Assembly: GCA_964349065.1 (NCBI GenBank)
Contig: CAYGEY010000001.1
Location: 4,261-68,260, forward strand
DNA: 64,000 bases
Source: an uncultured Candidatus Peribacteria bacterium
GTDB lineage: Bacteria > Patescibacteriota > Gracilibacteria > 1-14-2-50-48-13
Direction of reading: 5' to 3'
This document shows, one piece after another, positions 13,940-14,849 of the stretch. The position numbers and the translations under genes were made by a program. The notes beneath the pieces are model-generated. The model worked only from the letters and a program-made list of their open reading frames with translations, did not search any database and was not told the DNA's origin. Within the stretch, counting starts at the first letter, position 1, and every line of letters starts with the position of its first letter.

Positions 13940-14761
13940 ATGTTCATCCAGAAAAAATCAGGAGAATTTGAAGCATTTGATCCGAAAAAACTCCACGAAT
14001 CACTAAAAAAAGCAGGAGCCTCTGACAAAGAAGCCGCGCATGTCATTTACAAGGTACAAAAAGAAAAACCGAAAAGTTCTTTTGAAGTATACCAACATAC
14101 TCTTTCTCATGCCCTCTCAACCAATACAACACTTGGACTAAAATATAACCTCAAACAGGCACTTCAAGAACTTGGCCCCTCAGGTTTTCCTTTTGAACAA
14201 TTTATTGCAGAGTTACTCCGCAGACAAGGCTGGATTGCTCAAACCAACCTCACTCTCCAAGGCCACTGTGTTACCCACGAAATAGATGTCGAAGTACACA
14301 ATGAGAAAAGCAATGGAATCATCGAATGTAAATTCCGGAACCAACCCGGGAGCAAAGTAGATATCAAAGTGCCTCTCTATGTACGTTCACGATTTCTGGA
14401 CTGTGAAGAGAATATGCACCGTGCTTACAAAGATACAGCAATTTCAGAATTCTTTGTCATGATTGCAACAAATACGAAATTTACTACAGATGCAATTACA
14501 TACGGTCAATGCATGGGTATGAAACTCCTTGGATGGGATTTCCCTGAGCATGGAAATATTCGAGAAATGGTTATAGAAACCGGGCTAACTCCAATAACAG
14601 TCATACCACATCTCTCATTCAAACAAAAACAATACCTCATAACCAAAGGGATTGTCTTCTGCCACCAGATATTTGCAAAAACCCACTACTTACGCCACAT
14701 GGGATTAGATAAAAAAGAAATTGCACATATCTTGGAAGATATAGGCAAATTATGTAAATAA
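13940..14761 (+). CDS. ATP-cone domain protein fused to a PD-(D/E)xK restriction-endonuclease-like domain
   Basis: N-terminus MFIQKKSGEFEAFDPKKLHESLKKAGAS (ATP-cone). The central HEIDVEV...GIIECKF fits a D...ExK nuclease core (Mrr_cat-like). Confidence 0.6.
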   Translation: MFIQKKSGEFEAFDPKKLHESLKKAGASDKEAAHVIYKVQKEKPKSSFEVYQHTLSHALSTNTTLGLKYNLKQALQELGPSGFPFEQFIAELLRRQGWIAQTNLTLQGHCVTHEIDVEVHNEKSNGIIECKFRNQPGSKVDIKVPLYVRSRFLDCEENMHRAYKDTAISEFFVMIATNTKFTTDAITYGQCMGMKLLGWDFPEHGNIREMVIETGLTPITVIPHLSFKQKQYLITKGIVFCHQIFAKTHYLRHMGLDKKEIAHILEDIGKLCK

Positions 14762-14849
14762 TCTTAAAATAGTAAAGTGCTAAGTCTCGATCTCTTGACG
14801 TAACGAACGTGAAGTCAATGGAGAGACGTGTACTTTACTATTTTAAGAT
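14761..14849 (+). repeat. family-1 structured hairpin repeat, copy B (89 nt)
   Basis: 20-bp outer stem ATCTTAAAATAGTAAAGTGC/GTACTTTACTATTTTAAGAT (one G-T pair); core GTCTC-GATCTC-TTGAC-GTAACGAACGTGAA-GTCAA-TGGA-GAGAC. Spans exactly from stop codon (14759-61) to stop codon (14849-51). Confidence 0.85.

What the first reader, a model, noticed from the sequence alone, without database searches (positions are those of the whole stretch)
14761..14849. Family-1 copy B occupies the entire stop-to-stop interval between convergent genes
The hairpin's first base is the last base of the TAA of the ATP-cone nuclease gene (14759-61). Its last base is the first base of the engB stop (14849-51). So the two convergent genes are separated by nothing except this 89-nt element. 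Copy B also carries the compensatory changes (GTCTC/GAGAC, TTGAC/GTCAA) that give the best covariation evidence.
Basis: seen in the sequence. Interest (0 to 1): 0.6.

Follow-up and report, generated by a model that had tools for sequence, protein, structure and literature searches.

The report
Terminator-like hairpin repeat between convergent genes
The 93-base hairpin that fills the gap between two converging genes is one of about 28 copies of a newly spread, terminator-shaped repeat found only in this tiny uncultured bacterium. It is a new example of a known kind of selfish-but-useful bacterial repeat, not a new type of RNA gene.

Summary
A strong hairpin (-42.8 kcal/mol, z -8.95) fills the whole interval between the stop of an ATP-cone/nuclease-like gene and the stop of engB. 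The perfect 20-bp arms run 14759-14851, so both stop codons lie inside the stem.

Copy B belongs to a family of 27 full copies plus one cut copy in this 826-kb genome. The repeated unit is the whole 85-95-nt hairpin. The outer arms share a consensus, and conservation rises from base to tip. Pairing is kept by many compensatory changes (94% paired; 24 of 33 pairs changed on both sides).

Copies sit at gene 3' ends, mostly between convergent genes. A U-rich run follows the inner hairpin on both strands, which is the layout of a bidirectional intrinsic terminator.

The closest relative (EngB 88% identical) lacks the element at all 4 testable sites. At this site it has an unrelated 33-nt palindrome. 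A more distant relative has overlapping genes there. None of 400 genomes of the class has the family.

I found no target-site duplication, no conserved terminal repeats and none of the four transposase families searched.

Best reading: a recently expanded, SPRITE/REP-like terminator-mimicking repeat. It is a new member of a known kind. Transcript data could not be obtained.

The parts
14759..14851 (+). Copy B of the family-1 hairpin repeat, taken as the full palindrome including both stop codons
   Evidence: 93-nt hairpin, -42.8 kcal/mol on the + strand and -33.9 on the - strand. The covariance model R1 scores it 86 bits.
14759..14778 (+). 5' outer arm (P1 plus the first two pairs of P2), A-rich. 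Its first three bases are the TAA stop of the + gene.
   Evidence: pair I4, 100% complementary. The arm matches the family arm consensus at about 80% by eye, and the arms are homologous across copies.
14832..14851 (+). 3' outer arm, U-rich (ACTTTACTATTTTAAGATTA). Its last three bases are the TTA that encodes the engB stop on the - strand.
   Evidence: TTTACTATTT follows the inner hairpin.
14779..14831 (+). Conserved core. P2 is 14777-80/14830-33. P3 is GTCTC 14784-88 / GAGAC 14823-27. P3b is 14791-93/14820-22. P4 is TTGAC 14795-99 / GTCAA 14814-18.
   Evidence: covariation; conservation 0.73-0.87.
14800..14813 (+). Apical region GTAACGAACGTGAA. It holds a 2-bp mini-helix (A14803-C14804 with G14809-T14810) closing a GAAC tetraloop (14805-08). 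This is the most conserved part of the family.
   Evidence: P5 paired in 27 of 27 copies: CG 21, UG 5, UA 1; identity 0.88.
13940..14761 (+). Upstream convergent gene of 273 aa, an ATP-cone / AF1548-like (nuclease-like) protein
   Evidence: and (weak ATP-cone and AF1548-like_C matches, both below the Pfam cut-offs). Orthologs of 65% identity or more occur in syntenic relatives.
14849..15430 (-). Downstream convergent gene engB/yihA (ribosome-biogenesis GTPase, 193 aa)
   Evidence: MMR_HSR1, 1.1e-16.
11946..12031 (+). Copy A of the same family, in a convergent junction
29798..29885 (+). Copy D of the same family. It lies between two - strand genes (SLH protein and DUF1003), antisense to them.
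44863..44953 (+). Copy C of the same family, in a convergent junction. The stop of the - gene (44948-50) lies inside its 3' arm.

Best explanation
Copy B is one copy of a lineage-specific interspersed hairpin repeat. The unit is 85-95 nt, and this genome holds 27 full copies plus one cut at a contig end. The family spread after this lineage split from its closest sampled relative.

The whole hairpin is the repeated unit. Its layout is an A-rich arm, an irregular inner hairpin containing G-C pairs, and a U-rich arm. On either strand this reads as a hairpin followed by a U-tract, which is the layout of a bidirectional intrinsic terminator.

At this site it replaced or filled a minimal stop-to-stop spacer. 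Most likely it ends both convergent transcripts (the nuclease-like gene on +, the ygjP-engB operon on -), limits antisense read-through, and leaves each mRNA with a protective 3' stem-loop. This is what REP and SPRITE-type repeats do or are proposed to do.

What is shown: repeat membership, structure, covariation, placement at gene 3' ends, and absence from relatives. What is inferred: termination and stabilisation, and how the copies spread. No canonical transposition signature was found.
For: - Family and structure: the covariance model R1 finds 27 full copies plus one cut copy in the genome. On the model-based alignment of 27 copies, 94.3% of cells pair, 24 of 33 pairs show changes on both sides (164 cells), and 0 of 500 shuffles reach that level. 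Versions with the partner slid by 1-3 columns pair at 37-53%.
- The whole hairpin is the unit: the 16-nt 3' arms have mean pairwise identity 0.486 against 0.351 when shuffled (z about 20), with consensus TTTAYYTTTYNAAAA. Conservation rises from flanks 0.3 to P1 0.50, P2/P3 0.73-0.81 and tip 0.88.
- Placement: 15 copies lie in 157 convergent junctions, 11 in 477 tandem junctions and 1 in 145 divergent junctions. Nearly all lie within -20 to +14 nt of a stop codon.
- Terminator layout: a mean of 6.4 of 10 bases are T after the inner hairpin on the model strand, and 6.0 of 10 on the reverse strand, against 3.1 expected. In tandem contexts the orientation is 5 sense to 5 antisense, which fits an orientation-independent role.
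- Recent gain: the relative with 88% identical EngB has a 27-nt spacer here that forms a different perfect palindrome, TAATTTTATGTATAT-TAA-ATATACATAAAATTA. Its gaps at three other copy sites are 23, 18 and -8 nt, against 94, 124 and 101 nt here.
- A relative with 68% EngB and 65% nuclease identity has the same convergent pair overlapping by 16 nt.
- There are no hits in 400 genomes of the class, in the relatives' loci or in viral contigs.
- Analogues: SPRITE is described as terminator-like and biased to 3' ends of convergent genes (PMC3184786). A model REP in E. coli acts both as a terminator and as an mRNA stabiliser (bioRxiv 10.64898/2026.03.23.713779). Terminator stems evolve by compensation through G-U intermediates (PMC5381666).
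Against: - Termination is therefore inferred from shape alone.
- The inner hairpin is long and irregular (about 55 nt, only -15 kcal/mol on its own, z -1.45). The simple terminator scan does not flag it, since its loop limit is 3-8 nt.
- The genome already has ordinary GC-rich bidirectional terminators at many convergent junctions.
- The strongly conserved asymmetric tip, and the excess of G-U (25) over A-C (7) in the stems, are not needed for a simple terminator. They hint at a strand-specific constraint this explanation does not cover.
- The spreading mechanism is unknown.
Confidence: 0.58

Rival explanations
1. It is a purely selfish, non-autonomous mobile DNA element (MITE- or REPIN-like) with no role in RNA. 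It is seen at convergent 3' junctions only because insertions there are tolerated in a tightly packed genome.
For: - It is absent at 4 of 4 orthologous sites in the closest relative and confined to this genome.
- About 28 dispersed copies share core identity above 75%.
- Orientation is random with respect to the upstream gene.
- One copy ends a contig (C7:1-46), as repeats often do.
Against: - The ends are the least conserved part, so there are no conserved terminal inverted repeats.
- There is no target-site duplication.
- Y1_Tnp, DDE_3, DDE_Tnp_1 and rve are all absent from the 86%-complete assembly.
- The arms have diverged to about 50% identity yet remain about 93% paired through double changes. 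Neutral decay of junk would not give that.
- The tip-ward conservation gradient and the G-U over A-C excess point to selection on a folded single strand.
Confidence: 0.22
2. It is an orientation-specific structured RNA (or single-stranded DNA) whose conserved tip is bound by a dedicated protein or nucleic acid. The tip is P4, an internal loop, a 2-bp helix and a GRAC tetraloop. On this reading the terminator-like arms are secondary.
For: - The tip is the most conserved region (0.88).
- P5 pairs in 27 of 27 copies and shows the series C-G, U-G, U-A.
- G-U outnumbers A-C 25 to 7 in the stems.
- The model strand folds better in 20 of 27 copies, and copy B by about 9 kcal/mol.
- Two other long hairpins in the genome carry the same ACGAACGT tip.
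Against: - In 5 of 10 tandem contexts the model strand is antisense to the only adjacent upstream gene. Copy D lies between two verified - strand genes.
- There is no Rfam match.
- It is restricted to one genome and absent from the 88% relative at all four testable sites, so it cannot be an essential conserved RNA.
- The G-U counts include inherited subfamily states, so the independent events are few.
Confidence: 0.12
3. Only the roughly 56-nt core is mobile, and it lodges in the tips of pre-existing, unrelated terminator hairpins. This was the reading of an earlier follow-up on the same family, made from four copies.
For: - The core is far more conserved than the arms.
- The relative has a simple palindrome at the same site, into whose tip a core could in principle have been inserted. 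The net length difference is 60 nt.
Against: - With 26-27 copies the arms prove to be homologous, with a position-specific consensus (z about 20).
- The A-rich arm is always 5' of the core in the model orientation. Random lodging would not give that.
- Copy B's arms match the family arm consensus and not the relative's arms (TAATCTTAAAATAGTAAAGT against TAATTTTATGTATAT).
- The ordinary terminators of this genome have GC-rich stems that are not seen next to any core.
Confidence: 0.05

Closest known systems
[quoted passage not shown] 2011, as summarised in PMC3184786)
   Same: It is an interspersed repeat of about 100 nt whose fold resembles a Rho-independent terminator. [quoted passage not shown]
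   Different: Sequence relatedness to SPRITE was not compared, and the host is a Firmicute rather than this Patescibacteria-type lineage. Here the unit is a single long hairpin with a conserved irregular tip and fast-evolving compensated arms. The family is confined to one genome among those searched.
REP / BIME elements of Enterobacteria, and REPINs mobilised by RAYT (Y1) transposases
   Same: They are extragenic palindromes at gene 3' ends and between convergent genes. A model REP has an experimentally supported dual role as partial terminator and mRNA 3' stabiliser. Their locations vary between close strains, and they carry no target-site duplication.
   Different: REPs are about 35 nt, GC-rich, and carry a conserved 5' GTAG-type tetranucleotide (from my own knowledge, not tested here). 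REPINs have conserved ends with a variable middle, which is the reverse of the gradient here. No Y1/RAYT gene is present in this assembly.
Bacterial MITEs such as Correia elements (Neisseria) or RUP (pneumococcus)
   Same: They are short, non-autonomous, hairpin-forming dispersed repeats in intergenic DNA that can influence transcription. They can abut or enter gene ends.
   Different: MITEs are defined by conserved terminal inverted repeats and flanking target-site duplications (PMC3184786). Neither is found here. None of the four transposase families searched was found.
Ordinary bidirectional intrinsic terminators
   Same: They have an A-tract, a hairpin and a U-tract between convergent genes, and their stems are maintained by compensatory change through G-U intermediates (PMC5381666). 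Very long stems can still terminate (PMC10325885).
   Different: Ordinary terminators are not sequence-related to one another. These 28 share a core of about 55 nt, so they are copies. The hairpin is much longer and more irregular than the genome's own GC-rich terminators.

Membership tests
MITE (miniature inverted-repeat transposable element) | Conserved terminal inverted repeats matching those of an insertion sequence | tested here: not met
   The ends are the least conserved part (P1 identity 0.50, flanks 0.3). The arms are complementary within each copy but differ between copies.
MITE (miniature inverted-repeat transposable element) | Flanking target-site duplication (direct repeat) | tested here: not met
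   The flanks of 27 copies, aligned at the hairpin base, show no consistent direct repeat. At copy B the flanks are the two stop codons, TAA and TTA, which are inverted rather than direct. The trivial TA dinucleotide on each side cannot be excluded as a duplication.
MITE (miniature inverted-repeat transposable element) | A cognate transposase available in trans | tested here: not met
   DDE_3, DDE_Tnp_1, rve and Y1_Tnp are all absent from the assembly, while the control genomes gave matches. The assembly is only 86% complete, and other transposase families were not searched.
REP / REPIN-RAYT system | A RAYT (Y1 HUH transposase) gene in the genome | tested here: not met
   PF01797 gives no match at E <= 0.01.
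REP / REPIN-RAYT system | A short (20-40 nt) palindrome, or a doublet with conserved ends and a variable spacer | tested here: not met
   The unit is 85-95 nt with a conserved centre and variable ends.
SPRITE-like terminator-mimicking interspersed repeat (a functional kind, not a sequence family) | A dispersed repeat whose fold is a hairpin followed by a U-rich run | tested here: met
   The genome holds 27 full copies plus one cut copy. The 10 nt after the inner hairpin hold 6.4 T on the model strand and 6.0 on the reverse strand, against 3.1 expected.
SPRITE-like terminator-mimicking interspersed repeat (a functional kind, not a sequence family) | Bias to 3' ends of genes, especially convergent pairs | tested here: met
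   The element occupies 15 of 157 convergent junctions, 11 of 477 tandem junctions and 1 of 145 divergent junctions. Copies lie within -20 to +14 nt of a stop.
SPRITE-like terminator-mimicking interspersed repeat (a functional kind, not a sequence family) | Sequence homology to the pneumococcal SPRITE itself | not tested
   No SPRITE sequence was at hand. The Rfam scan gave no significant family.
Intrinsic (Rho-independent) bidirectional terminator | Actual release of transcripts at the U-tract in both directions | not testable with these tools
Only the architecture could be assessed.
Any Rfam RNA family | A match at or above the family's gathering score | tested here: not met
   Only tmRNA and one tRNA match in the window. 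In the permissive scan of 14700-14900, the best hits are generic long-hairpin miRNA models far below their thresholds.

The most novel reading that the evidence does not exclude
The element is a self-propagating bidirectional terminator. Its conserved tip, an AC-GRAC-GU mini-hairpin on an irregular stem, would be the recognition determinant for an unknown, non-canonical copying machinery acting on one folded strand. That machinery would operate in a reduced-genome bacterium in which none of the four transposase families searched was found. A second, otherwise unrelated hairpin pair in the same genome carries the same ACGAACGT tip, which would mean several hairpin families use one tip-reading system.
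Probability: 0.12. Interest if true: 0.65.

Novelty: new member of a known kind. Interest (0 to 1): 0.35.

Why it matters
Genomes of candidate-phyla-radiation bacteria are tiny and tightly packed, and little is known about how their transcripts end. This is a young repeat family that delivers ready-made terminator-shaped hairpins exactly to stop codons. In this genome it fills about one in ten convergent junctions, while sites in a close relative are still empty.

That gives a natural before-and-after comparison for two questions. How do 3'-end signals arise? How does selfish DNA get domesticated in minimal genomes?

For annotation, it warns that such hairpins are repeats and not new RNA genes. 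It also shows that they can supply or embed stop codons.

Tried and rejected
- Degenerate core pattern TTGNCGNAACGRACGTGNAG, scanned in genome contigs and metagenome contigs. Screening all 242 loci then held (230 of them from these scans) with an extended motif showed only chance matches outside the own genome.
- A stricter 33-nt pattern in viral contigs gave 0 hits.
- Rfam at gathering and at permissive thresholds gave nothing relevant.
- Ribozyme or riboswitch reading: I looked by eye for the core motifs I recall of the hammerhead, twister and pistol ribozymes and saw none. The random orientation relative to transcription also argues against it.
- Replication-strand bias, as expected for single-strand (IS200/IS605-like) transposition. 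The local GC skew on the element strand is negative for 16 copies and positive for 12 (binomial p 0.57). By my own sign-flip estimate weighted by skew, p is about 0.08. This is not significant, and it is confounded by gene orientation on short contigs.
- The 'core lodged in unrelated terminator tips' model is rejected, because the arms are homologous.
- The idea that the relative's 33-nt palindrome is a deletion remnant of the element: its arms do not match the element's arms beyond the stop codons and a few A/T bases.
- DNA of the relative's ENA contigs was not obtainable ('file too large'). For copies A and D and the SmpB site, only gene coordinates could be used, not sequences.

Full report
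**1. The observation**

The + strand ORF 13940-14761 (273 aa) ends with TAA at 14759-61. The - strand ORF 14849-15430 (193 aa) has its stop, TTA on the + strand, at 14849-51. The repeat finder reports perfect 20-nt arms at 14759-14778 and 14832-14851. The hairpin therefore contains both stop codons and spans 93 nt.

As RNA the + strand folds at -42.8 kcal/mol (shuffles -15.1 +/- 3.1, z -8.95, 0 of 200 as good). The - strand folds at -33.9 kcal/mol.

Pfam supports engB strongly (MMR_HSR1, 1.1e-16). The other gene gives weak, sub-threshold matches to ATP-cone and AF1548-like_C.

**2. The family**

The core motif occurs four times in the window, always on the + strand:
- 11946-12031
- 14759-14851
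- 29798-29885
- 44863-44953

The window's genome was laid as 826 kb in 30 contigs. A motif scan found 22 copies in it. A covariance model built from 21 of them (R1) finds 27 full copies plus one cut off at a contig end.

Rfam has no matching family.

On the model-based alignment of 27 copies (A4):
- 94.3% of cells form standard pairs.
- 24 of 33 pairs carry changes on both sides (164 cells).
- No shuffle of 500 reaches these values.
- Structures with the partner slid by 1-3 columns pair at only 37-53%.

This alignment was fitted to the structure and so leans towards it. The plain MAFFT alignment gives the same verdict: 86.5% paired, 22 pairs, 0 of 500.

A 2-bp apical helix closing a GRAC tetraloop is paired in all 27 copies (CG 21, UG 5, UA 1).

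Sister copies share them, so they mark a subfamily.

**3. What the repeated unit is**

An earlier follow-up on the same family worked from four copies. It read the outer stems as unrelated terminators capped by a mobile 56-nt module (note e1-3043937).

With 26 copies, the 16-nt 3' arms anchored at P2 have mean pairwise identity 0.486, against 0.351 for shuffled or circularly shifted arms (z about 20). Their consensus is TTTAYYTTTYNAAAA. The A-rich arm is always on the 5' side in the model orientation. So the whole 85-95-nt hairpin is the unit.

Conservation rises steadily towards the tip:

| Region | Mean pairwise identity |
|---|---|
| Flanks | about 0.3 |
| P1 | 0.50 |
| P2 | 0.73-0.79 |
| P3 | 0.76-0.81 |
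| P4 | about 0.87 |
| Apical region | 0.88 |

**4. Where the copies sit**

I used crude ORF calls for this.
- 15 copies lie in convergent junctions (of 157).
- 11 lie in tandem junctions (of 477).
- 1 lies in a divergent junction (of 145).
- Almost all lie within -20 to +14 nt of a stop codon.
- In copy C the stop of the - gene lies inside the 3' arm.

In the ten tandem cases the model strand is sense to the upstream gene five times and antisense five times. For copy D the two flanking - strand genes are real (DUF1003 and SLH).

The 10 nt after the inner hairpin hold on average 6.4 T on the model strand and 6.0 T on the reverse strand, against 3.1 expected. This is the layout of a bidirectional intrinsic terminator.

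The genome also has ordinary GC-rich bidirectional terminators at many other convergent junctions. About half of all convergent pairs overlap or nearly abut.

**5. The orthologous junction in relatives**

*Closest relative.* The closest EngB in the protein collection is 88% identical. It lies on a syntenic 10.3-kb contig (ygjP, engB, then the convergent 273-aa gene, DUF4352, SNase, AHSA1...), where the engB/273-aa gap is 27 nt.

A short contig from another assembly gives the DNA (L243). Both coding ends are at homologous positions, but the spacer is a different perfect palindrome, TAATTTTATGTATAT-TAA-ATATACATAAAATTA (-13.5 kcal/mol). It again includes both stops and has no family-1 core.

Gene coordinates on the relative's contigs show that three more sites are empty:

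| Site | Gap in the relative | Gap here |
|---|---|---|
| Copy A | 23 nt | 94 nt |
| Copy D | 18 nt | 124 nt |
| SmpB site (C3:58782) | genes overlap by 8 nt | 101 nt |

*More distant relatives.*
- The relative with EngB 68% and nuclease 65% identical has the same convergent pair overlapping by 16 nt.
- In the relative with 67% identical EngB, the overlapping convergent neighbour is not the nuclease ortholog.
- In the relative with 56% identical EngB, an extra 248-aa gene sits between engB and a 279-aa gene with a faint Mrr_cat match that may be the nuclease ortholog.
- Both of these also lack a spacer.

*Wider search.* Model R1 finds nothing in 40 relatives, in 400 genomes of the class covering 229 genera, or in viral contigs.

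The family therefore expanded after the split from the 88% relative.

**6. Signs of the spreading mechanism**

- Aligning the flanks at the hairpin base shows no consistent direct repeat and no conserved terminal sequence.
- Y1_Tnp, DDE_3, DDE_Tnp_1 and rve are absent from the 86%-complete assembly, while the control genomes gave matches.
- Orientation relative to local GC skew is 16 to 12, which is not significant.
- In the stems, G-U outnumbers A-C 25 to 7.
- The model strand folds better in 20 of 27 copies.

The last two points give a modest sign that one folded strand is the constrained form. Several of these states are inherited within subfamilies, so the independent events are fewer than the counts suggest.

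**7. Interpretation**

*Firmly shown.* Copy B is a member of a young, lineage-restricted interspersed hairpin repeat. Its pairing is actively maintained, and it was gained at this junction recently.

*Most likely mechanism (inferred).* The element works as a portable bidirectional terminator and 3'-end stem-loop. Several points support this:
- The described pneumococcal SPRITE element is terminator-like and biased to 3' ends of convergent genes (PMC3184786).
- A model REP has an experimentally supported dual terminator/stabiliser role.
- Compensatory evolution of terminator stems is documented.
- Very long stems are compatible with termination.

*Rivals.*
- A purely selfish element does not explain the compensated arms or the conservation gradient.
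- A strand-specific RNA fits the tip conservation but not the antisense copies or the absence from the close relative.
- The 'core lodged in hairpin tips' model is contradicted by the homology of the arms.

*Left unexplained.*
- Why the tip is so conserved.
- Why two other long hairpins elsewhere in the genome (C13:8774-8863 and C30:7324-7415) carry the same ACGAACGT tip.
- How the copies are made.

**8. Limits**

- DNA of the relative's long contigs was unavailable.
- My two large-collection pattern scans were too degenerate and returned only chance matches.
- Gene calls for the whole-genome statistics are crude longest-ORF calls.

**9. Verdict**

The element is a new member of a known kind: terminator-mimicking interspersed palindromic repeats of the SPRITE/REP type. 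Interest is moderate to low for this single copy, and somewhat higher for the family's unexplained tip conservation.

Noticed in passing
Outside the window: genome contigs C13:8774-8863 and C30:7324-7415: Two long hairpins (about -46 to -48 kcal/mol) fill convergent junctions. They are unrelated to family-1 in their arms. Their exact tip is GGACGTTCGTCC, the complement of the ACGAACGT tip motif of family-1. About 22 of the 25 genomic occurrences of that 8-mer lie in these hairpin tips.
   Followed up: partly
L243:1685-1717 (relative with 88% identical EngB): A perfect 15-bp AT-only palindrome with a 3-nt loop occupies the stop-to-stop interval at the orthologous junction and includes both stop codons. 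It is unknown whether this is itself a repeat in that genome.
   Followed up: partly
window 13078-13296 (around the family-2 hairpin at 13178-13298): The SNase/DUF4352 spacer is 219 nt here and 101 nt in the relative.
   Followed up: partly
window 57089-57132: A perfect 44-bp palindrome (GGTTCTGATTGGGTAATTATCATG / CATGATAATTACCCAATCAGAACC) lies just after the stop of the + ORF 56771-57085. It is not related to family-1.
   Followed up: no
window 31882-31918: A perfect 18-nt inverted repeat with a 1-nt spacer (AACTTCAACTGTCCCCAA T TTGGGGACAGTTGAAGTT) lies inside the - strand ORF 31242-32093.
   Followed up: no
window 60259-60683 (-) and 10160-10232 (-): A tmRNA gene (90 bits) and a tRNA gene were found by Rfam.
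   Followed up: no
Genome contig C7:1-46: A family-1 copy is cut off by a contig end, so this repeat probably contributes to breaks in the assembly.
   Followed up: no
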